Origin: a virus
Virus record (IMG/VR): IMGVR_UViG_3300042541_003180
Location: 21,312-85,311 of that record
Length of the DNA: 64,000 nucleotides
Reading direction: 5' to 3' (one strand)
Each line of letters opens with the position of its first letter. Positions within the stretch are counted from its first letter, which is position 1. The position numbers and the translations under genes are program-made. Below, piece after piece: positions 38,692 to 48,142 of this stretch. A model generated the notes under the pieces. It saw only the letters and a program-made list of their open reading frames with translations, was not told the origin of the DNA and did not search any database.

Positions 38692-41600
38692 TTATTGACT
38701 TTTTTGATCTGCACTTGCAGTACTTCTACCTTTAGATTCAATATATTCGTCAACACCACTTGTTGATTGATCTATTTTAGATAAAAGTCCTATAATTACA
38801 TCAAGTTGTTGATGAGTATCACCATATTTCGATTTAGGTTTAGCTGTTCCTCCTTTTGCTGCTACTACACCTTGTTTTTTATCACCAACAGATGGTCTCT
38901 TAGTTTTCTCATTATCAACATCTAATAATTTACTAAACACACTTGCCTTATCTTCAAGTGTTTGCATCATATCTTCAAATGCATTTTGATTCAGAGCTGC
39001 TAATACTGCCAAATTACCCGTTAATCTTCTTATTAGATTAACTTTGTCTCCATCAATACTTTTTAAAGCACCACCAAATTTTTTCAGAGAGGTTGCTAAT
39101 TTATCATAAGCTCCCGCAATTTTAACCATTCCACGTGCTGCTTGAGAAATTGGATCCATACCAATTAATGATTTAACTCCACTTAACATACCCATTCCAG
39201 TTATACTATTAGCTAGATTAACATAATCTAATACATTTTTAGATACATTACTCATATAGTTAGGATCGATAGTCTTAGAAAAGTATTTACTACCGGATGC
39301 CAATGTTTTTGCAACACCTACCATTGACAATGCAACTATATTAGTTTTTGCAATCTTTAATAATTTTGCACCGGATACTATTTCTACTATGTCCACATAT
39401 CCAGATATTGATGATTTTGTACCATCAATCCATTTTTTTGGTGGGTATGAGTTCCAAGTTGATTTACCAAGATCAAATATTGCCGCCACTGCAACCATTG
39501 ATGTTGCAATTATATTAATTTTAGCAATTTGATTTAACTTGGTATTAGATGTTATTTCTACTATGTCCACATATCCAGATATTGATGATTTTGTACCATC
39601 AATCCATTTTTCTGGTGGATAAAAATCCCAAACTGCTTTATCTACAAGTGTAAATAATTGTGCTACTCCAACAATTGCAAGTGATATGGCACCTATTCCA
39701 TAGACCATGTCATTAACTGCACTTTTATTAGACTTCCAAAAACCACTACCTTTCATAAATTCAAATACTGGTGCAAATGCTTGTAAAGAGGCACCAACAT
39801 TTTCACCCCATTCTTTAGAAGGAACTTTTGTTAAATCAAACTTGGCTATGTTTGTACCAAATTTTTCAGCGGCCGCTATTATACCATCCGATATAGTAAG
39901 TATAGCACTCTTCATATCCTCTGCAGAAACATTTGCTCCAAAGAAACCTGTATCCATAAGTGCTGCATATACTGGTGAGAATGCACTAATTGCAGTACCA
40001 ACACCTTCTGCCCACTCTTTACTTGGTCCATTTTTGAATGCTACTTTTACTCCTGCAAAGTATGTTGCTGCATCTACAATACCTCTTGATACTGTTCTTA
40101 TTGCTTTGGCAAAATCTTCTGGTCCAACTCCTCCACCAAGTAAACTCATTATTTTATTTGCTGCTAACATTGCATATACTGGTGAAAAAGCACCTAATGC
40201 TAGTGCTATACCTTCTGCCCAAGCTTTGGTAGGTCCACCTGTATAATTACCTTTTCTTAAAATAAATGAAGTATCAACTATGGTTTGTGCTATTAGTAAA
40301 ACAGCTTCACCACCTGCAATTAATGCAATCATTCCTAATCCAAGAGTTCCTAATATAAATGTACCAAGTCCTCCCATTGCCAACCCAAATGCGGTCATAC
40401 TTAATCCTACACTAAATGACCATTCATAAGATGGAAATTTGTCATACTTACCTAAACCAAGAATGTATGATGTTGCTACAATAGTAGCTGCCACTAACAT
40501 TACTGCCACTGCACCAATTGCAAGTGCTGCTAACCCTAAACCACCTGTTTCCATTATTAAGGCACCTAATACTAAAGCTGCCCCACCAAATGCAATCAAT
40601 GATAATCCAACCCCAAGTGCCCACTTCCAACTAGGATATTTATCATACTTACCTAATGCTAATATATGTGAAGAAATTGCAATTGCGGCAGCAATCATAA
40701 TAACTCCTATAATACCCAATGCTAAGTCTGCTATAGGCATTTTGCCCATAAGTATAACTGCGGGTGTCATTAATAATGTTACAATCGCTAAAGTTGCTCC
40801 AAGTAGAAGTATTTTAAGAATTAACATAAATGGTAGATCTGCTGTGCCTTGTAATATTATAGATGATAATGCTATTGCTGTGGCTAATGCAACTAATACT
40901 AATGGAATTAAATATATCTTACCTTTTCCTAGATATTTTTCAATTATTGTTATACCAATTGCCAAGTCAGTCATAAAATAAGACATTAACGCAAAAACTA
41001 AAGCTATTCCTAATACAGTTAAAAACTGCCAAAATCCGATAGGTTGTACATATGATAATACCCAAGAAGATACAGTAATTGCAGCCGCTATACCAACTAA
41101 AACTAATAACAGATCTGTTGCTTTAACACCGGTTCTTTTAAAAGCAATAACTCCTATTGCTATTTTATCCATATTAAACGCAATTACTGCAAACATAGCG
41201 GCTATTAGGATACCCGTTATGGCTTGTCCAAATGACATTGGTTTAATAAATGCAAGTATAAAGGACGATGCAGTAATTGCTAGTGCGATACCAACTAAAA
41301 CTTTTACTAACTCGAATGTACTTATATTAAGACTTTGAAATAGCACTACTCCTAATGCGATTTTATGTAAACTATATGAAATTACTGCAAACATAGCGGC
41401 GATTAATATAGCAGTAATTGATTGTCCTAGTGTCATTGGTTTAATAAATGCCAGTATAAAGGAAGACGCAGTAATTGCTAGTGATATGGCAACTAAAGAT
41501 TTTACTAACTGGAATGGACTAACATTTAGTTTTCCAAATATAATTGATGCGATGAATATATTCTCTAAGTAGTTTGAAAGTACTGCAAACATTGCTGCAA

Positions 41601-42183
41601 TTAATACCGCAGTTAATAGTTGTGTGAATCCAATTGGTTCTATAAATGCCATTATCCAAGAAGCCATTGTAACCGCAACTGCCATCATTACAATAACTAA
41701 TGATGCGTTAAATGCTTCTTTTATGGATAGATTTAGTTTTGCTATTTTTTCAAATGCAATTGCCATTAAGACTACGGCTAAACTTAGACCAACTACTGAT
41801 AAAAAGTCTATTTTACCAACTAGTTTGAATGCCAAACCAATCGCCAATACTGCAACAGCAATTAAAAGTATTGTGGTAACACCTTTTTTTATCTGCCCTT
41901 CTTTTTTTGGATCGTCAGATTCTTCAAATAGTCCAGTTTTTTTATCATTCTCTTTCTTCTTCTGCATTGAAAGAATGGTATTCTGTTGAGCAAGAATCTT
42001 TGTTGTATCTGATTTAATAGACTTTAAACTAACATTAATTTCAGTTAATTGTTTTGAGAAGTCACCACTTTGTAATGCGTTTGTAGTTGTAGTATTACTA
42101 GTACCCTTTTTATCAAGGGCTTGAGCAATCATTTCAAGTGATTGTGATAGATTATTTAAAGCATCTAATAACTGTTTGTCCAT
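38692..42183 (-). CDS. Tape-measure-like protein with hydrophobic repeats; start reassigned to 42183 (MDKQLL)
   Basis: Ala/Gly/Ile-rich, about 60-aa hydrophobic repeats and P-x-x-x-W repeats; TAATATATA 5 nt upstream of 42183. Confidence 0.65.
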   Translation of the reverse strand: MDKQLLDALNNLSQSLEMIAQALDKKGTSNTTTTNALQSGDFSKQLTEINVSLKSIKSDTTKILAQQNTILSMQKKKENDKKTGLFEESDDPKKEGQIKKGVTTILLIAVAVLAIGLAFKLVGKIDFLSVVGLSLAVVLMAIAFEKIAKLNLSIKEAFNASLVIVMMAVAVTMASWIMAFIEPIGFTQLLTAVLIAAMFAVLSNYLENIFIASIIFGKLNVSPFQLVKSLVAISLAITASSFILAFIKPMTLGQSITAILIAAMFAVISYSLHKIALGVVLFQSLNISTFELVKVLVGIALAITASSFILAFIKPMSFGQAITGILIAAMFAVIAFNMDKIAIGVIAFKRTGVKATDLLLVLVGIAAAITVSSWVLSYVQPIGFWQFLTVLGIALVFALMSYFMTDLAIGITIIEKYLGKGKIYLIPLVLVALATAIALSSIILQGTADLPFMLILKILLLGATLAIVTLLMTPAVILMGKMPIADLALGIIGVIMIAAAIAISSHILALGKYDKYPSWKWALGVGLSLIAFGGAALVLGALIMETGGLGLAALAIGAVAVMLVAATIVATSYILGLGKYDKFPSYEWSFSVGLSMTAFGLAMGGLGTFILGTLGLGMIALIAGGEAVLLIAQTIVDTSFILRKGNYTGGPTKAWAEGIALALGAFSPVYAMLAANKIMSLLGGGVGPEDFAKAIRTVSRGIVDAATYFAGVKVAFKNGPSKEWAEGVGTAISAFSPVYAALMDTGFFGANVSAEDMKSAILTISDGIIAAAEKFGTNIAKFDLTKVPSKEWGENVGASLQAFAPVFEFMKGSGFWKSNKSAVNDMVYGIGAISLAIVGVAQLFTLVDKAVWDFYPPEKWIDGTKSSISGYVDIVEITSNTKLNQIAKINIIATSMVAVAAIFDLGKSTWNSYPPKKWIDGTKSSISGYVDIVEIVSGAKLLKIAKTNIVALSMVGVAKTLASGSKYFSKTIDPNYMSNVSKNVLDYVNLANSITGMGMLSGVKSLIGMDPISQAARGMVKIAGAYDKLATSLKKFGGALKSIDGDKVNLIRRLTGNLAVLAALNQNAFEDMMQTLEDKASVFSKLLDVDNEKTKRPSVGDKKQGVVAAKGGTAKPKSKYGDTHQQLDVIIGLLSKIDQSTSGVDEYIESKGRSTASADQKSQ
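39379..39611. repeat. About 59-bp exact direct repeat within tape-measure-like gene
   Basis: tatttctactatgtccacatatccagatattgatgattttgtaccatcaatccattttt at 39379 and 39553 (174 bp = 58 aa period). Confidence 0.9.
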
Positions 42184-42274
42184 AAAAGTATATATTAAAA
42201 ATCTTAATCCTTTTAACATTTTATCTATTTTTTACTATAATAAAAAATAATATATAACTTATAAAACAAATCGT

Positions 42275-42736
42275 ATGGAAATGGGACTAAAAAAGACTTT
42301 GAAGTACTATATTCTCGGTGAATCTCTAAAGGAAATTGAAGCCAATCGTATATTGGACAAAATTTCTAAAAAGAAGTCACTTTCTGATAGAGAAAAGAGG
42401 TTTTTGGAATTGTATAATCACAAAACTGAAGAAACTCCTAAAGACCATATGTATTTGTCTAAGAATACAACTTGTGAAAGAGTTAAAACTTTAATTGATA
42501 GTGGTAAATCAGTAATTTGTGATTTACATGATAGAAATGGTAAAATTGGATTACAGATTGTAGATATAGATAATAAACATGCTGATGATGATTGTACTAT
42601 ATTTATGAGAGGTAATGAAACATATAAATTGGAAGATAGATTTTTATACAATTTAATTTACAATCAAAAATCAAATAAGTATTCTCTTCAAGAACAAGGT
42701 GAGTATTATGAAAAAATAAATCACGATAATGATTAA
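42275..42736 (+). CDS. Hypothetical protein with N-terminal DUF6576-like module
   Basis: ANRILDKISKKKSLSDREKRFL; TAATATATA at 42248-42256. Confidence 0.6.
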   Translation: MEMGLKKTLKYYILGESLKEIEANRILDKISKKKSLSDREKRFLELYNHKTEETPKDHMYLSKNTTCERVKTLIDSGKSVICDLHDRNGKIGLQIVDIDNKHADDDCTIFMRGNETYKLEDRFLYNLIYNQKSNKYSLQEQGEYYEKINHDND

Positions 42737-43007
42737 AAGATTTGAAGACTTTATAAATGAGGTAAGTGGTACAGAATTAGTAGGAAAAGAAATGGGTTCT
42801 GGTTTTGGAACTACAGAATTAGGTAATAATACAATAAGTTCTGGTGAAACTTCTGTACTTTATAGTGATTTAGATGGTAAATTTTATACAATGGATGAAT
42901 ACAATCAATTGTATCAAGATTATTTAAAATCAGGTGGCGGTCCATTAAATGGATTTAACAAAGAAAACCTAGAAGAGATGATTGTTTTTTTACAAGAGAA
43001 ACAATAA
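42729..43007 (+). CDS. Small CTS-like protein
   Basis: MIKRFEDFINE-V. Confidence 0.6.
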   Translation: MIKRFEDFINEVSGTELVGKEMGSGFGTTELGNNTISSGETSVLYSDLDGKFYTMDEYNQLYQDYLKSGGGPLNGFNKENLEEMIVFLQEKQ

Positions 43008-43048
43008 TACAATATATAATAAATTGATAAAAAAACAGAAATCAAGTT

Positions 43049-44374
43049 ATGAGTAGATTAGTTACCTTAAATGGTATTAATGATGAAGAGGTATTAAACT
43101 CTTTATTTAGTGGAGAAATATCTGTTATAGAAGATATTCAGGGAAGTAAGATTTGGGTTAATTGGAATGGTAAGGAATTTACGATTAAAACAAAATCTAT
43201 TTCAAGTGAGCCAATCAATCTTATCGATTTGGCAATGCAGAACTATTATAATCCTGCAATTAATTACTTTAATTCTTTAGATCCTAGAGTAAAAAGTTTA
43301 TTAAATAAAAAATGGTGGTTTTGTTTTGAGTATTTCCCAGACGAGCAACCTGCAAACATTCAATATGCTAGAGTTCCAAAAAATAATTTAGTTTTAACTG
43401 CTATAAACAAGTCGGGTAAATATGAGTTTGTTTTAGAAGAGTTAGATGAGTATTCAAGATTATTTGATGTTGAGATTATACCTGTAATTTTTCAAGGTAA
43501 ATTAACTGATAAAATGATTGAGGCAATAAAATACTTCTTAAATACAAGTGAAGAAGATTTGGAATATATTTTCGGTGAAAAATCATTTACATTTTTCTTT
43601 TATAAGATTTTAAATCCACTTTCTGAAGGTTCATTCTTAATGGATGATGACTTTCAAAAAAACATTGAAAAACTTATTATAAGAAATAGTGATTCTGATA
43701 TGTCATTTCAGTTATTAAATCCACTATATTCAAGATTAAGTGAGAATAATGATACTGAGTTTGTAGAAATATATACTTTAATACTAATTAATTTCTTAAA
43801 TTTTTGTCAATCAGTTAATTTGACGGACTTGAAATTAAAAGGACAAACTAAAGATGAGATTTATATTTATTTAATCTGTAAACTTTACAATATTTATATT
43901 AGTGAGGTAAAGCAAGATTTATTAGACTTTGATTTTGTTGTACCTGACTTCTTTGATAAAGATAAGTTTAAAATCAATACTGAATTAATTAAAAATAAAG
44001 TAACTAAAGAATATTTATCCGAATCTGAGAAATTAGAATATATCTTTAAAGTTATTTTAGGTTCATTCAGTAAGAAAAGAAAGAAAGCTATTGGTATATT
44101 CACTGATAATACAGTTAAGTTGTTTAATAAGTTTATTGATGATATAGAAGATCATATTGGAACCTACTTAAAACGTATTAGTGAAATTGAACTAACAAGA
44201 GCTGGATTATTAGACTTTGGTGATTTCTTTGACATTCAATATGATGTTGATGGTGAAGGAGAAGTTTATCCAGATGTTTACTCTGAGTTTGAAAAAGGAG
44301 TATCAAATGATAAAAAGAAAAAAGGAAAAGGTGGTTTTGAACCAATTTCCTCAAAACAAGAACCTACTAAATAG
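43049..44374 (+). CDS. RNA-ligase-like fold protein lacking catalytic Lys
   Basis: VIEDIQGSKI (motif I KxDG altered), FCFEYF, IPVIFQG, IEKLIIR. Confidence 0.5.
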   Translation: MSRLVTLNGINDEEVLNSLFSGEISVIEDIQGSKIWVNWNGKEFTIKTKSISSEPINLIDLAMQNYYNPAINYFNSLDPRVKSLLNKKWWFCFEYFPDEQPANIQYARVPKNNLVLTAINKSGKYEFVLEELDEYSRLFDVEIIPVIFQGKLTDKMIEAIKYFLNTSEEDLEYIFGEKSFTFFFYKILNPLSEGSFLMDDDFQKNIEKLIIRNSDSDMSFQLLNPLYSRLSENNDTEFVEIYTLILINFLNFCQSVNLTDLKLKGQTKDEIYIYLICKLYNIYISEVKQDLLDFDFVVPDFFDKDKFKINTELIKNKVTKEYLSESEKLEYIFKVILGSFSKKRKKAIGIFTDNTVKLFNKFIDDIEDHIGTYLKRISEIELTRAGLLDFGDFFDIQYDVDGEGEVYPDVYSEFEKGVSNDKKKKGKGGFEPISSKQEPTK

Positions 44375-44383
44375 TAGGTTTTT
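44361..44383 (+). terminator. Intrinsic terminator
   Basis: aacctacta-aa-tagtaggttttt. Confidence 0.7.
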
Positions 44384-44402
44384 CTGTAAAATATAAAACA
44401 CA

Positions 44403-44624
44403 ATGAACGAAATAAATTTAAAAATGAAAACGGTTAATGTTGAAACAAAAACAAGAAAAGTTAAGTGTGATTGGTCTGTAGAGTTAGTAAAAGATCTAAA
44501 CTCTTTTCATAATCTTGATGTTGAATCAGAACTAGAAAAACTTTTAGTAAATGAACTTAAAATAGCTACTAGAAAAGAAAATAGAAAGAAAAAAATTGAA
44601 AATTTAACCAAACATACTTGTTAA
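44403..44624 (+). CDS. 73-aa stand-alone fragment homologous to major capsid protein gp23 segment
   Basis: VETKTRKVKCDWSVELVKDLNSFHNLDVESELEKLLVNE parallels T4 gp23 IEAKSRQLKAAYSIELAQDLRAVHGMDADAELSGILATE (recalled). Confidence 0.7.
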   Translation: MNEINLKMKTVNVETKTRKVKCDWSVELVKDLNSFHNLDVESELEKLLVNELKIATRKENRKKKIENLTKHTC

Positions 44625-44640
44625 TTTTGATATAAAAACT

Positions 44641-45867
44641 ATGTATATTGAAAACACAATTATTAACCTAGATACCTCTGAAAACGTAACAAAACGTATA
44701 GACGAAAAATTATTCTCACTTCAATTTTTACCAGAATGTTTGTATGGAATATCTAATATAAAATCATTAGAATTTAATGGTGTTAAGCTTAAAACAAATT
44801 ATCTAATTGATATAGTACATACTTTAATTTTAAAATACTATTTTAAAAAGGAAAATCGTTTTGCTTTAAATGCAACAGTATTAAAAGATAAATATGGATA
44901 TCTTTATAATTATTATATTAATTACTTGGTTAGTAATGGAGTCTTAGTTTTAAAAACAAATTATCAAAACGGTGTTACATCACGAATTTATGCGTTAGAT
45001 GAGAATATATTTGTTGATAAGATAAAAAGATATAAGAACTTTGATAGAGTTCTTTTAAAGAAGTATAAACACAAGTTTATTGATATGATTCATATTGATG
45101 ATACTTCTAAGTCGAGTTTGATTGATCCTTTTATAAAAGAAAAGTTAGTTTCTGATTTGTTTAGTGTTAAAATTGAGTATGATAGAGCTATATTCTTTTT
45201 GGACTCATTAAAACACCAAGATATAGACATATATAATAGAAATATTTACTCTGTTGATTGTATTAATGATAAACATATATTTTATCATTTTGATTCTTAT
45301 GGTAGAATGCACACTAACTATACAATTTTAAAGTCATTTATTAGAAAGAATTGTTTATTAATAGATGGTGAAGAAACCTGTGAGATTGATATACAGAACA
45401 GTCAACCCCTGTTTTTAACTAAATTAATAGATATTAATATGGTTGATAAAAAAGAGTTTGAACTATTTAGACAATTAACAACTACTGGTACATACTATCA
45501 ATATGTTATGTATCAATTAGGAGAAACTGATAAAAAGAAGGTTAAAGAAATGACTTATAAAGTTCTTTTTGGTAGAAATATTGGTTCATCTAAAGTAGAT
45601 AAACAATTTAAGAAATTATTTCCTACAATACATCAATTTATTAAAACTTATAAAAAAGAGAATGAAGATTACCGAGTTTTGGCGTATGATTTACAAAAAG
45701 CGGAATCAAATCTAATTTTTAATACTATAATAAAAAAAATAAATCAATTTTATCCAGAGATAAAATTGATAACGATACACGATAGTATAGTTATACCTAA
45801 AAAATATCGTGAAGAAGTAAATCAAATTTTTGAAATAGAACTCAAAAGAGAGTTTAACATAAACTAA
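44641..45867 (+). CDS. Minimal family-A polymerase-fold protein
   Basis: YGRMHTN, EIDIQNSQP (motif A), KKVKEMTYKVLFG (motif B-like), LQKAES, ITIHDSIV (motif C); no exonuclease domains. Confidence 0.65.
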   Translation: MYIENTIINLDTSENVTKRIDEKLFSLQFLPECLYGISNIKSLEFNGVKLKTNYLIDIVHTLILKYYFKKENRFALNATVLKDKYGYLYNYYINYLVSNGVLVLKTNYQNGVTSRIYALDENIFVDKIKRYKNFDRVLLKKYKHKFIDMIHIDDTSKSSLIDPFIKEKLVSDLFSVKIEYDRAIFFLDSLKHQDIDIYNRNIYSVDCINDKHIFYHFDSYGRMHTNYTILKSFIRKNCLLIDGEETCEIDIQNSQPLFLTKLIDINMVDKKEFELFRQLTTTGTYYQYVMYQLGETDKKKVKEMTYKVLFGRNIGSSKVDKQFKKLFPTIHQFIKTYKKENEDYRVLAYDLQKAESNLIFNTIIKKINQFYPEIKLITIHDSIVIPKKYREEVNQIFEIELKREFNIN

Positions 45868-46620: not shown

Positions 46621-47397
46621 TTATTTTATATAGAACCACATTATTTTATTTTTAAAGTTCGGTGTTTCTTTCATAAAGTATTTATCTTCATCAATTGATT
46701 TTATTACAAATAGTCCATCTTCATTAGTTCCTGACAAATCTGTCCTTAAAATAATGAACTTATCTTTTGAAACTAATTCAGATTCAATTAAAGTATAAGT
46801 TTGTGCTCTAACAAGTTGTTTATCTACATCAAAATATTTTGATATAGTTTCTGGATGTGCTAATATAGTAGTTCCTGGACCACGTCTATTTGTCGTCGCA
46901 ATATAATTTCCACACATAAGTGATTTGGATACAATTCTTCTTTGATTGTATTCATAGTTCTCTTTATCTGTTTTACTAGGATCATTAGTTAGAGTTAAAT
47001 CAAATGATGACATTCCATTTTTTAAAACAGGTTGTCCTTTTGTAAAGTTTTCCATATAGTTTATTAAATCTGTATGTAAATCTTCATATGATGTAAAAGG
47101 CGTTGCTTGTAATCTCATAGAAAATATCTTTACTCCTATAACTGGTATTGAACTTTCATCCATTTTTGGTAAATCAACTCTTTTATCCCATGCGGAATCT
47201 TCTTTTTCACCAGTCATAATATCAATGGCTAATTCACGATTTTGTGCTTTTACCTTTAATTGGTCTTCGAGTGTATTTTCTTCTACATAATCTAAATAAG
47301 ATATAGTAGCAACTGAACCACTATGTTGTTTTTCTGAGAAATTACATAAGTATTTTATTTCCTTTTTTATTTCATCTGTTGTTTTAGAAAGTATCAT
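46621..47397 (-). CDS. Protein containing gp23 major-capsid-like C-terminal-half relic
   Basis: QRRIVSKSLMCGNYIATTNRRGPGTTILAHP parallels gp23 EAVEIARQTGRGEGNFII (recalled). Confidence 0.55.
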   Translation of the reverse strand: MILSKTTDEIKKEIKYLCNFSEKQHSGSVATISYLDYVEENTLEDQLKVKAQNRELAIDIMTGEKEDSAWDKRVDLPKMDESSIPVIGVKIFSMRLQATPFTSYEDLHTDLINYMENFTKGQPVLKNGMSSFDLTLTNDPSKTDKENYEYNQRRIVSKSLMCGNYIATTNRRGPGTTILAHPETISKYFDVDKQLVRAQTYTLIESELVSKDKFIILRTDLSGTNEDGLFVIKSIDEDKYFMKETPNFKNKIMWFYIK

Positions 47398-48142
47398 ACA
47401 AGTTCTTCATTCCATTTTTTTGTACACTCATATTAACCGTTTTAACTAAATCTTCTTTTGGTAGTGTTATTAATTGGTTAAGTAATTGGAGATTTCTTTG
47501 GTAATATAACATATTGGGTGTTTCTCTACTATGATATAAATGGTAACATTTATTTTTACATTCTGTCCAACTTAAAAAGTTTTTAACTTTGTGAGATTGA
47601 AAGTCGTCTTCTGCACCCCAACCCATGAAAGATTCATTCCAACCACCTATTTTAAGAATAGCTGATTTTCTGAAGATACAAATACCTCCACATAATGGTA
47701 CTTTTTGATGATCTGTTTCTCCACGACCTGGTCTGTCAATAAGTAGCATTTGATCTAATTGATAATTTGTTTCATTGGGTTGTAAATCAACAACAGAACT
47801 GTATGGATTAACCATTTCATATTTTTCAAGTAGTTTAACTGCTTCTATAAATTCATTAGGATTCATTATTAGGTCTGAATCTGCAAAAACTATAATATCG
47901 GACTTTGCCTCTTTGGTTGCAACATTAAATGCCCAAGATTTATTATATGGTTTATCCGATTTTAAGAAAATGTGTCTTGCTTTTAAAGGAAGATGTAATA
48001 TTTTTGAGTGTGTGTCTTGTTCTATAAGTATAACATCAACATTTGCAAACCCGCTAATCCAGTCTAATACTTTTTTAAGATTATGAAATCTATCTGGACT
48101 GTGTCTATACCCTATGATATAGGTAAAAGAATGTGTATTCAT
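47384..48142 (-). CDS. Glycosyltransferase (GT2/GT7 galactosyltransferase-like)
   Basis: YNKSWAFNVA, FADSD (DxD), GGWNESFMGWGAEDD, YHLYH. Confidence 0.9.
   Translation of the reverse strand: MNTHSFTYIIGYRHSPDRFHNLKKVLDWISGFANVDVILIEQDTHSKILHLPLKARHIFLKSDKPYNKSWAFNVATKEAKSDIIVFADSDLIMNPNEFIEAVKLLEKYEMVNPYSSVVDLQPNETNYQLDQMLLIDRPGRGETDHQKVPLCGGICIFRKSAILKIGGWNESFMGWGAEDDFQSHKVKNFLSWTECKNKCYHLYHSRETPNMLYYQRNLQLLNQLITLPKEDLVKTVNMSVQKNGMKNLYDTF

What the first reader, a model, noticed from the sequence alone, without database searches (positions are those of the whole stretch)
44403..44624. Stand-alone 73-aa mini-protein copying a conserved major capsid segment (capsid decoy?)
Seen: VETKTRKVKCDWSVELVKDLNSFHNLDVESELEKLLVNE aligns by eye with the highly conserved gp23 segment (T4 IEAKSRQLKAAYSIELAQDLRAVHGMDADAELSGILATE, recalled). 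It has a clean start and stop and a C-terminal RKKKIENL module. It sits among non-structural genes and lacks the exact TAATATATA motif. Known: several anti-phage systems (CapRel, Lit) sense major capsid protein. Inference: a repurposed capsid fragment acting as an immune decoy, an assembly regulator, or a weapon against competing phages.
Basis: partly seen in the sequence, partly recalled or inferred. Interest (0 to 1): 0.8.

Follow-up and report, generated by a model that had tools for sequence, protein, structure and literature searches.

The report
Tagged capsid-fragment mini-gene of huge phage
A giant uncultured phage keeps, as a separate selected gene, a 73-residue copy of the piece of a T4-type head-shell protein that joins shell units, ending in a short tail peptide shared with other mini-genes; its function is untested, it probably acts as a capsid-protein mimic, and my literature searches found no description of it.

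Summary
Window 44403-44624 (+) is a clean 73-codon ORF that matches Pfam Gp23 above its curated cut-off (51.7 bits, E 1.2e-13) and aligns with T4 gp23 residues 248-305.

It is not gene debris:
- At least 72 clusters of 66-75 aa, plus at least 25 more distant 55-86-aa clusters, align end to end.
- Flanking genes are the same in all 8 related loci analysed.
- dN/dS is 0.24.
- Related contigs also carry an intact 574-575-aa capsid gene.

It resembles classical T4-like capsid proteins (37-48% identity) much more than its own clade's (about 24%).

The tail (RKKKIENL) is a recurrent module. In a complete 634-kb relative, 17 of 20 motif hits lie at ORF ends (0.8 expected). Some of those ORF bodies are pieces of the capsid protein, the head protease/scaffold and DNA polymerase B.

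The segment is not the Gol peptide, so the Lit-decoy idea fails. Other decoy, assembly-regulator and anti-competitor roles remain untested.

Best reading (about 45%): a microprotein that mimics the inter-capsomer interface of gp23-type shells, with the tail as a shared docking module.

Earlier follow-ups in this scan reached the same reading on other genomes. My literature searches found no description of such genes.

The parts
44403..44624 (+). Mini-gene, 73 codons plus stop
   Evidence: ORF list and sequence. Conserved family of 66-75 aa. dN/dS 0.24 over 9 loci.
44403..44579 (+). Capsid-derived body, residues 1-59. Corresponds to T4 gp23 248-305: positively charged P-domain strands, the short acidic P-domain helix and the spine helix.
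   Evidence: Pfam Gp23 E 1.2e-13. PDB profile alignment. Structural meaning from PMC9546572. AF2 model pLDDT 85: residues 1-25 extended, helices 26-34 and 40-68.
44583..44606 (+). Tail module R61-L68 (RKKKIENL), followed by TKHTC
   Evidence: Invariant in 27 family members. The same motif ends a second mini-ORF in this contig and about 15 mini-ORFs in a 634-kb relative, 17 of 20 hits at ORF ends against 0.8 expected. Its codons differ between paralogues, but the DNA is invariant among 9 orthologues.
44361..44385 (+). Hairpin plus T-run across the stop codon of the upstream gene; likely intrinsic terminator just before the mini-gene
   Evidence: RNAalifold gives 10 pairs, none broken, 2 kept through changes on both sides. 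The scan flagged the same palindrome.
44387..44398 (+). Promoter-like A/T motif (TAAAATATAAAA) ending 5 nt before the ATG. Relatives have TAATATA(A/G)A at the same place.
   Evidence: Alignment of upstream regions. The exact motif TAATATATA is enriched 22 against 6.1 in the window and precedes the head protease gene in the relative W01. Promoter function is inferred, not shown.
42248..42256 (+). Exact TAATATATA, 18 nt before the first gene of the co-directional block 42275-45867 that contains the mini-gene
   Evidence: ORF map.
63415..63567 (+). Second tail-bearing mini-gene of this contig (50 aa, ends RKKKIKNLFNF); member of the same tail family
   Evidence: Motif scan of the contig. 16 conserved clusters of 44-64 aa. 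Counterpart in W01 at 189479-189649. Origin of its body unresolved.

Best explanation
Shown: the 73-aa product is a functional microprotein that arose from a T4-type (gp23-family) major capsid protein. It keeps only three elements: the two positively charged P-domain strands, the short acidic P-domain helix and the spine helix. In T4 the acidic helix and the positive strands form the charge contacts between neighbouring capsomers at the quasi-threefold axes. The region near that helix carries one cluster of head-length mutations.

Inferred: lacking the rest of the HK97 fold, the protein cannot build a shell. It most likely binds gp23-type capsid protein or capsomers by taking the place of this element, and so modulates or blocks lattice growth. 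This is a dominant-negative 'interface mimic', comparable to eukaryotic microProteins.

Inferred: the invariant C-terminal basic amphipathic helix (RKKKIENL; general form (I/L)RKxKIxxIF) is a separable module shared with other mini-proteins, whose bodies copy other pieces of head proteins and of DNA polymerase B. It would give all of them a common docking or anchoring function.

Not resolved: whether the target is the phage's own giant head or the heads of co-infecting classical T4-type phages.
For: Origin and identity:
- Pfam Gp23 51.7 bits against a cut-off of 24.4; PHROG 138; T4 gp23 248-305 at E 8e-9, gp24 only 0.14.

Real gene:
- 72 clusters of 66-75 aa at 63-97% identity.
- At least 25 further 55-86-aa clusters align end to end and rank above any full-length capsid protein in an unbiased scan of 1.84 billion proteins.
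- ESM Atlas holds clusters of 56, 80 and 148 members.
- dN/dS is 0.24, and the flanking genes are the same in all loci.
- The gene has its own upstream terminator with compensatory pairs and a promoter-like motif.
- It coexists with an intact 574-575-aa capsid gene on the same contigs.

Interface mimicry:
- Residues that are invariant or nearly so in the 27 close members (E27, D31, H36, D39, E41, K16, K19) fall on the acidic helix, the loop carrying D285/D287 and the positive strands of gp23. E27, D31 and D39 stay above 90% across all 47 members. PMC9546572 gives the roles of these elements.
- The AF2 model (pLDDT 85) leaves residues 1-25 extended with no partner strands, as expected for a piece that needs a partner.

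Tail as a module:
- 17 of 20 motif hits in W01 lie within 12 aa of a stop; a shuffle control expects 0.83, maximum 4. Codons vary synonymously between paralogues and nothing is shared downstream.
- Bodies match capsid protein residues 494-535 and Gp23 profile 308-356, the spine helix, the repeats of the head protease/scaffold protein at E 1e-21, and the motif-A stretch of PolB.
Against: - No binding or phenotype data exist, and no cultured phage carries the gene.
Foldseek found nothing for the isolated fragment.
- The resident capsid protein's homologous segment is 92-100% identical across lineages in which the mini-protein changes a great deal, or even loses its helix. That argues against a tight fit to the phage's own capsid protein.
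- A DNA polymerase fragment carrying the same tail does not fit a purely head-assembly role.
- The tail-coding DNA is invariant among orthologues and lies 17-60 nt before the next gene. Part of its conservation may therefore serve that gene's expression.
- dN/dS is three to four times higher than in the neighbouring genes.
Confidence: 0.45

Rival explanations
1. Immune decoy or antagonist. The fragment binds a host defence sensor that recognises this conserved capsid-protein surface and keeps it from firing.
For: Capsid proteins are known triggers of defence systems (papers listed, e.g. PMC9712102, title and abstract only; specific systems are from my own knowledge). The fragment is the most conserved gp23 stretch. 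Fast evolution relative to the resident capsid protein would suit an arms race. Other tail-ORFs copy conserved parts of other essential proteins.
Against: It is not the Gol region, so it is not a Lit decoy. It resembles classical T4-like capsid proteins, not the resident one (24% identity), so it would be a poor decoy for sensors of this phage's own capsid. A fragment that binds a sensor would be expected to trigger it rather than silence it. No defence-related neighbour was found.
Confidence: 0.12
2. The active part is the tail, with the capsid-derived body only a carrier; or the ORF mainly serves expression of the downstream 408-aa gene. Possible tail roles are docking to a sliding clamp, nucleic acid, the acidic scaffold or another common partner.
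For: The tail is the only invariant stretch and is shared by bodies of unrelated origin. The tail-coding DNA is invariant in 9 orthologues and ends 17 nt before the next ATG. The phage's PolB ends in RRLSVVMDIFGGFK, loosely the same basic-then-hydrophobic-x-x-I-F pattern. A looser form of the motif ends several long proteins.
Against: The body is itself under purifying selection (dN/dS 0.23). It keeps the capsid protein's key residues across subfamilies only 35-56% identical. The likeness to the polymerase C-terminus is too short to test. No long protein with a tail-like end has a recognisable function.
Confidence: 0.15
3. One half of a split capsid-protein paralogue. The mini-protein supplies the strands and spine helix that the nearby 258-aa capsid-like protein (46621-47397, minus strand) lacks, and together they form a gp24-like accessory shell protein.
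For: The 258-aa protein matches resident capsid protein residues 375-440 (E 0.001-0.002). Its W02 orthologue matches Gp23 profile 209-323. That region is complementary to the mini-protein's 131-183. The two genes are 2 kb apart in this window and in W01 and W02.
Against: They lie on opposite strands with three genes between them. They differ in affinity: the mini-protein is closest to classical T4-type capsid proteins, the 258-aa protein to the resident type. W01 and W02 keep the 258-aa gene while their syntenic mini-ORF has lost the helix. The structure prediction of the 258-aa protein failed (pLDDT 41), so the missing-piece idea is untested.
Confidence: 0.07
4. A decaying remnant of a duplicated or captured capsid gene with no function of its own.
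For: It covers only about 15% of a capsid protein. dN/dS is higher than in its neighbours. The syntenic ORFs in W01 and W02 are shortened.
Against: Length is conserved (73 or 69 aa) over 63-97% identity in 72 clusters. dN/dS is 0.24. Start, stop, terminator and promoter-like motif are conserved. There is no other capsid-protein homology in the flanks or in the 85-kb contig. Distant subfamilies keep the same architecture.
Confidence: 0.04

Closest known systems
T4 gp23 major capsid protein (Pfam PF07068; PDB 6uzc, 5vf3, 7vs5), residues 248-305
   Same: Clear sequence homology. The same conserved acidic helix, the loop corresponding to D285/D287 and the spine-helix residues are kept.
   Different: Only 73 aa of a protein of about 520-570 aa. 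There is no A-domain, N-arm, insertion domain or C-terminal P-domain strands, so it cannot form a shell. It carries a basic tail module that capsid proteins lack.
T4 gp24 vertex protein (capsid-protein paralogue)
   Same: A second gp23-family gene kept beside the main capsid gene.
   Different: gp24 is full length and forms pentamers. The mini-protein matches gp24 only at E 0.14 and is a fragment.
Eukaryotic microProteins (small single-domain proteins derived from larger ones that act as dominant-negative binders; from my own knowledge)
   Same: Small, evolutionarily derived from an interaction surface of a larger protein, and lacking that protein's other functional parts.
   Different: Never described for phage capsid proteins. 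Here binding is only inferred, and a shared tail module is added.
Capsid-size or assembly redirecting proteins of phage satellites (P4 Sid, SaPI CpmB/Ccm, PLE TcaP; from my own knowledge)
   Same: Small accessory proteins that act on another element's HK97-fold capsid protein to change assembly.
   Different: Sid, CpmB and TcaP are scaffolds unrelated in sequence to capsid proteins. Ccm is a full-length capsid-protein homologue. None is a fragment, and none carries this tail.
Gol peptide of T4 gp23 (trigger of the e14 Lit protease through EF-Tu)
   Same: A short, highly conserved stretch of gp23 with a biological activity of its own.
   Different: Gol lies in the first quarter of gp23 (PMC3014915) and this segment is 248-305. 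Gol is not a separate gene.
Short terminal targeting peptides of HK97-type shells (T4 capsid targeting sequence, encapsulin cargo-loading peptides; from my own knowledge); analogue for the tail only
   Same: A short terminal peptide shared by many otherwise unrelated small proteins of one system.
   Different: Sequence is unrelated as far as could be judged. Targeting by the tail is an idea, not a result.

Membership tests
Gp23-family major capsid protein (PF07068, HK97 fold) | Significant match to the family profile | tested here: met
   51.7 bits against a cut-off of 24.4, E 1.2e-13; PDB gp23 E 8e-9.
Gp23-family major capsid protein (PF07068, HK97 fold) | Complete HK97 fold (N-arm / E-loop linkers, P-domain sheet, spine helix, A-domain) able to form capsomers | tested here: not met
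   Only profile positions 131-183 of 376 are present. At 73 aa the model has one short and one long helix and an unpaired N-terminal stretch. It is a derivative, not a member in the functional sense.
Capsid-gene pseudogene remnant | Further capsid-protein homology in flanking DNA or other frames; frameshifts | tested here: not met
   Six-frame PF07068 search of the 85-kb contig finds only this ORF, with no gain in score from the upstream extension. tblastn with relatives' capsid proteins finds nothing adjacent. The flanks are conserved other genes.
Capsid-gene pseudogene remnant | Relaxed selection (dN/dS near 1), variable length | tested here: not met
   dN/dS 0.24. Length is 73 or 69 aa in nearly all of 72 clusters.
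Gol peptide / Lit trigger | Corresponds to the Gol region in the first quarter of gp23 | tested here: not met
   Aligns to gp23 248-305. Gol position from PMC3014915.
Tail-tagged mini-protein set of Mahaphage-type phages (undescribed) | Small ORF (about 35-90 aa) ending in (I/L)RKxKIxxIF within 12 residues of the stop | tested here: met
   RKKKIENL lies 5 residues from the stop. The motif is C-terminal in 17 of 20 hits in W01 against 0.83 expected. A second example lies in this contig.
Tail-tagged mini-protein set of Mahaphage-type phages (undescribed) | Body is a fragment of a larger phage protein | tested here: met
   The capsid-protein origin of this one is shown. For other members the origin was shown for roughly 6 of about 15 and is unknown for the rest.
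microProtein-type dominant-negative regulator | Binds the parent-type protein and forms non-productive complexes | not testable with these tools
   No complex prediction or experiment was available.
Sliding-clamp-binding peptide (for the tail) | The same motif at the C-terminus of the phage's replicative polymerase or other clamp clients | tested here: inconclusive
   The PolB C-terminal half ends RRLSVVMDIFGGFK, which shares only a hydrophobic-x-x-I-F pattern. No clamp client was identified among the long proteins with tail-like ends.

The most novel reading that the evidence does not exclude
Mahaphage-type huge phages encode a set of tagged 'fragment mimics'. These are microproteins that each copy a highly conserved piece of an essential phage protein (capsid protein, head protease/scaffold, DNA polymerase B) and share one tail that docks them to a common partner. 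They would be used as dominant-negative weapons against co-infecting classical T4-type phages, or as antagonists of host sensors of those proteins. The 73-aa protein would be the anti-capsid member, aimed at the inter-capsomer interface.
Probability: 0.2. Interest if true: 0.9.

Novelty: categorically new. Interest (0 to 1): 0.68.

Why it matters
If these microproteins bind gp23-type capsid proteins, they would be the first natural capsid-fragment inhibitors or tuners of phage head assembly. They would also be a prokaryotic-virus counterpart of eukaryotic microProteins. They point to the exact surface of T4-type capsids that controls capsomer joining and head size, which bears on how phages build capsids large enough for 0.6-Mb genomes. 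The shared tail suggests an unrecognised addressing system for small proteins in the largest known phages. The idea is directly testable in T4, because the fragment aligns with T4 gp23 without gaps over residues 248-305.

Tried and rejected
- Gol/Lit mimic: rejected, because the segment is gp23 248-305 and Gol lies in the first quarter.
- Frameshift fusion with the downstream 408-aa ORF at the A-run in the tail: rejected by reading, since the downstream frame has TAA at 44605-44607.
- Intron or mobile-element read-through as the origin of the shared tail: rejected. Nothing is shared downstream of the tail-ORFs and their codons differ.
- Foldseek against the PDB with the AF2 model: no match.
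- AF2 of the 258-aa capsid-like neighbour: pLDDT 41, unusable.
- RNA evidence: only contigs were available. One 151-nt contig with no mismatches, from a metatranscriptome, spans 44582-44700. DNA carry-over cannot be excluded, so expression is not shown.
- Pfam and PHROGs on ten long proteins with tail-like ends: no functional clue, apart from confirming the head protease.
- PDB sequence searches with the two flanking proteins: nothing.
- Scans of viral contigs and metagenome contigs returned only 6 and 8 loci. This was enough for dN/dS but too few for co-evolution tests.
- A common promoter motif in front of all W01 tail-ORFs: not found, 1 of 15.
- Literature searches for capsid fragments, decoys, truncated capsid paralogues and huge-phage small proteins: nothing describing such genes.

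Full report
**What is there**

Window 44403-44624 (+) is an ATG-to-TAA ORF of 73 codons. Its product matches Pfam Gp23 (PF07068) at E 1.2e-13 and 51.7 bits, against a gathering score of 24.4, with residues 1-53 on profile positions 131-183 of 376. It also matches PHROG 138, major head protein, at 1e-13. A profile of 27 family members hits T4 gp23 chains in the PDB at E 7e-9 to 8e-9 over residues 248-305, and the vertex protein gp24 only at E 0.14.

**Where the window comes from**

The window is the last 64 kb of an 85-kb IMG/VR fragment rated about 15% complete. Its nearest deposited relatives, at about 70% nucleotide identity, are the 634-735-kb 'uncultured phage' genomes LR745206 and LR7565xx. 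These are the Mahaphage clade, predicted to infect Bacteroidetes (PMC7162821).

The contig holds no full-length capsid gene. Two related partial contigs, G001 (180 kb) and G002 (191 kb), carry both the mini-gene and an intact 574-575-aa Gp23-family capsid ORF 27-30 kb away. The complete relatives W01 and W02 have a 560/571-aa capsid protein 10-20 kb from the syntenic spot. The mini-gene therefore exists beside a working capsid gene.

**It is a gene, not debris**

- The 5.8-billion-protein database holds 72 clusters (at 90% identity) of 66-75 aa, mostly 73 or 69 aa, at 63-97% identity. Some lie on contigs up to 649 kb.
- A length-unrestricted HMMER scan of 1.84 billion cluster representatives ranks further stand-alone proteins of 55-86 aa first. 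They are 35-56% identical and align end to end, tail included. Full-length or fragmentary capsid proteins come only below them and match only residues 3 to about 59.
- The ESM Atlas holds viral clusters of 56, 80 and 148 such 70-88-aa proteins.
- Across 9 loci the flanking genes are the same. Pooled Nei-Gojobori dN/dS is 0.24 (body 0.23, tail 0.27), against 0.06 and 0.08 for the two neighbours.
- A hairpin plus T-run sits across the stop of the upstream gene. It has 10 pairs, none broken, and 2 kept by changes on both sides.
- After the hairpin comes a promoter-like A/T motif 4-8 nt before the ATG: TAATATA(A/G)A in relatives, TAAAATATAAAA here.
- The exact motif TAATATATA is enriched in the window (22 sites against 6.1 expected). 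It heads the co-directional block at 42248, and in W01 it precedes the head protease/scaffold gene. Expression together with head genes is therefore plausible but not shown.
- RNA data were inconclusive.

**Which part of the capsid protein it is**

With mini residue n corresponding to gp23 residue n+246, the protein covers three elements:

- the positively charged P-domain strands;
- the short negatively charged P-domain helix;
- the spine helix.

According to the T4 head structures (PMC9546572), the acidic helix and the positive strands make the charge contacts between neighbouring capsomers at the quasi-threefold axes. The head-length mutations A268V, A275T, D285V and D287V/N cluster beside that helix. 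The gp31-bypass sites 292, 306 and 307 lie in the spine helix.

The residues that are invariant or nearly so in the 27 close members (K16, K19, E27, D31, H36, D39, E41, L44) fall on these elements. E27, D31 and D39 stay above 90% across all 47 members. AlphaFold2 with a 47-sequence alignment gives pLDDT 85. Residues 1-25 are extended without partner strands, there is a helix at 26-34, and one long helix at 40-68 runs through the tail.

The segment is not the Gol peptide, which lies in the first quarter of gp23 (PMC3014915).

**Whose capsid protein it resembles**

The mini-proteins of this window, G001 and G002 are 37-48% identical (50-58 bits) to classical T4-like capsid proteins. They are only about 24% identical (17-26 bits) to the capsid proteins of their own clade. 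One caveat applies: the classical set was chosen from the top hits.

In deposited phage genomes the only matches are gp23 genes of Aeromonas, Campylobacter, Escherichia, Prochlorococcus, Flavobacterium and other T4-like phages, plus a few metagenomic huge phages. No cultured phage has a stand-alone form.

The resident capsid protein's homologous segment is 92-100% identical among G001, G002, W01 and W02. Over the same lineages the mini-protein changes markedly. In W01 and W02 the syntenic ORF (61 and 53 aa) keeps only the strands plus the tail. A separate 67/70-aa gene at another locus keeps only the spine helix plus the tail. Both of those match only classical-type capsid proteins. The mini-gene's evolution is thus decoupled from the resident capsid protein.

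**The tail is a module**

In the close family the most conserved stretch is R61-KKKIENL-x-KH.

- The contig holds a second small ORF ending RKKKIKNLFNF (window 63415-63567), which is itself a conserved 44-64-aa family.
- In the complete 634-kb genome W01, fetched, a regular expression for the motif hits 20 times in all six-frame ORFs of at least 25 aa. 17 of these lie within 12 residues of a stop. Residue shuffling expects 3.2 and 0.83, with a maximum of 4.
- All 17 are ORFs of 25-87 aa (stop to stop; about 15 of them carry the strict form of the motif). Their tail codons differ at synonymous sites and nothing is shared downstream, so the conservation is at the peptide level.
- Several bodies are pieces of larger proteins. 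They match capsid protein residues 494-535 and Gp23 profile 308-356, the spine helix, and the repeats of the 707-aa protein encoded just upstream of the capsid gene (E 1e-21). That 707-aa protein is a head maturation protease with an acidic extension (PHROG 207, 4e-30). One body carries an 11-residue stretch 91% identical to the DNA polymerase B motif-A region of the phage's own split PolB.
- A looser form of the motif ends several long proteins of unknown function.

In the window's protein the tail lines up with the far end of the capsid protein's spine helix, and the model shows it as continuous helix. In the helix-only paralogues it follows a complete helix and a linker, so it is separable.

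Among the 9 orthologues the tail-coding DNA is invariant and ends 17 nt before the next gene. It may therefore also carry a signal for that gene.

**Interpretation**

Shown: this is a selected, independently transcribable microprotein derived from a T4-type capsid protein, and it belongs to a set of tail-tagged fragment proteins.

Inferred: it keeps both halves of the inter-capsomer charge interface but lacks the rest of the fold. It therefore most likely binds gp23-type capsid protein or capsomers at that interface and modulates or blocks lattice growth, with the tail as a common docking module. I put this at about 45%.

The target is open.

- For the phage's own head: a head-gene-type promoter motif, and other tail-ORFs derived from the phage's own protease/scaffold protein.
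- For co-infecting classical T4-type phages: much higher similarity to classical capsid proteins, evolution decoupled from the resident capsid protein, and a polymerase fragment in the same set.

Rivals are:

- a decoy or antagonist of a capsid-sensing defence (0.12);
- a function carried by the tail, or by expression of the downstream gene, with the body as carrier (0.15);
- half of a split capsid paralogue together with the 258-aa protein at 46621-47397 (0.07; the structure test failed);
- functionless remnant (0.04).

**Comparison with what is known, and novelty**

The protein is homologous to gp23 but fails the functional definition of a capsid protein. It is not gp24-like and not Gol. Conceptually the nearest things are eukaryotic microProteins and the satellite-encoded capsid-redirecting proteins, none of which is a capsid-protein fragment or carries such a tail. 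My literature searches found no description.

Earlier follow-ups of this scan reached the same core reading on other genomes (e1-5857496, e1-5806872, e1-5725538, e1-5361035). I reached the tail-family result before reading them, and I checked their main claims here.

- the comparison of evolutionary rate with the resident capsid protein;
- the terminator and promoter-like context;
- the finding that fragments are partly of classical type and partly of the phage's own type;
- an inconclusive test of the clamp-binding idea for the tail.

Noticed in passing
window 46621-47397 (-): 258-aa conserved protein (67 clusters) resembling the C-terminal half of the clade's own capsid protein. The W01 capsid protein matches it over residues 375-440 at E 0.001-0.002, and the W02 orthologue hits Gp23 profile 209-323 at E 0.002. 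It has no tail motif. AF2 failed (pLDDT 41).
   Followed up: partly
window 63415-63567 (+): Second tail-bearing mini-gene (50 aa, ends RKKKIKNLFNF). It forms a conserved family of 16 clusters of 44-64 aa. The origin of its body is unresolved; there are weak hints towards the capsid protein's C-terminus or the head protease protein.
   Followed up: partly
window 44641-45867 (+): 408-aa protein that by eye has family-A-polymerase-like motifs (DIQNSQP, HDS). It has no significant Pfam, PHROG or PDB hit, is strongly conserved (dN/dS 0.08), and starts 17 nt after the mini-gene.
   Followed up: no
window, 22 sites (e.g. 42248, 45871, 46040, 54099): TAATATATA is enriched (22 against 6.1 expected, maximum 13 in shuffles), mostly 4-31 nt before start codons. 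In W01 it precedes the head protease gene. It is probably a phage promoter element.
   Followed up: partly
window 44583-44640: The DNA encoding the tail, AGAAAGAAAAAAATTGAAAATTTA, is identical in 9 orthologues although synonymous divergence elsewhere in the gene is about 0.4. The stop codon is part of TAATTTTG, which from my own knowledge resembles a Bacteroidetes -7 promoter box.
   Followed up: no
W01 (LR745206) 232797-234344 (+) and 130568-131998 (-): The family-B DNA polymerase of the 634-kb relative is split into two ORFs about 100 kb apart: the exonuclease domain plus motif A, and the rest of the polymerase domain.
   Followed up: partly
W01 198486-200669 (+); L035 8546-10666: 707-aa protein just upstream of the capsid gene. 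It is a head maturation protease (PHROG 207, 4e-30) fused to a long repeat-rich, very acidic extension, possibly a protease-scaffold fusion.
   Followed up: partly
window 38692-42219 (-): 1175-aa protein with many repeated hydrophobic segments, judged by eye from the translation. It lies immediately upstream of the gene block that holds the mini-gene.
   Followed up: no
window 47384-48142 (-): Family-2 glycosyltransferase (Pfam 2.6e-9; PHROG galactosyl transferase 9e-19), overlapping the start of the 258-aa capsid-like gene and presumably co-transcribed with it.
   Followed up: no
W01 255010-255385 (-): Two overlapping tandem tail-ORFs (75 and 50 aa). The first is a copy of the capsid protein's C-terminal strands. 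The second looks by eye like the stretch just before them.
   Followed up: partly
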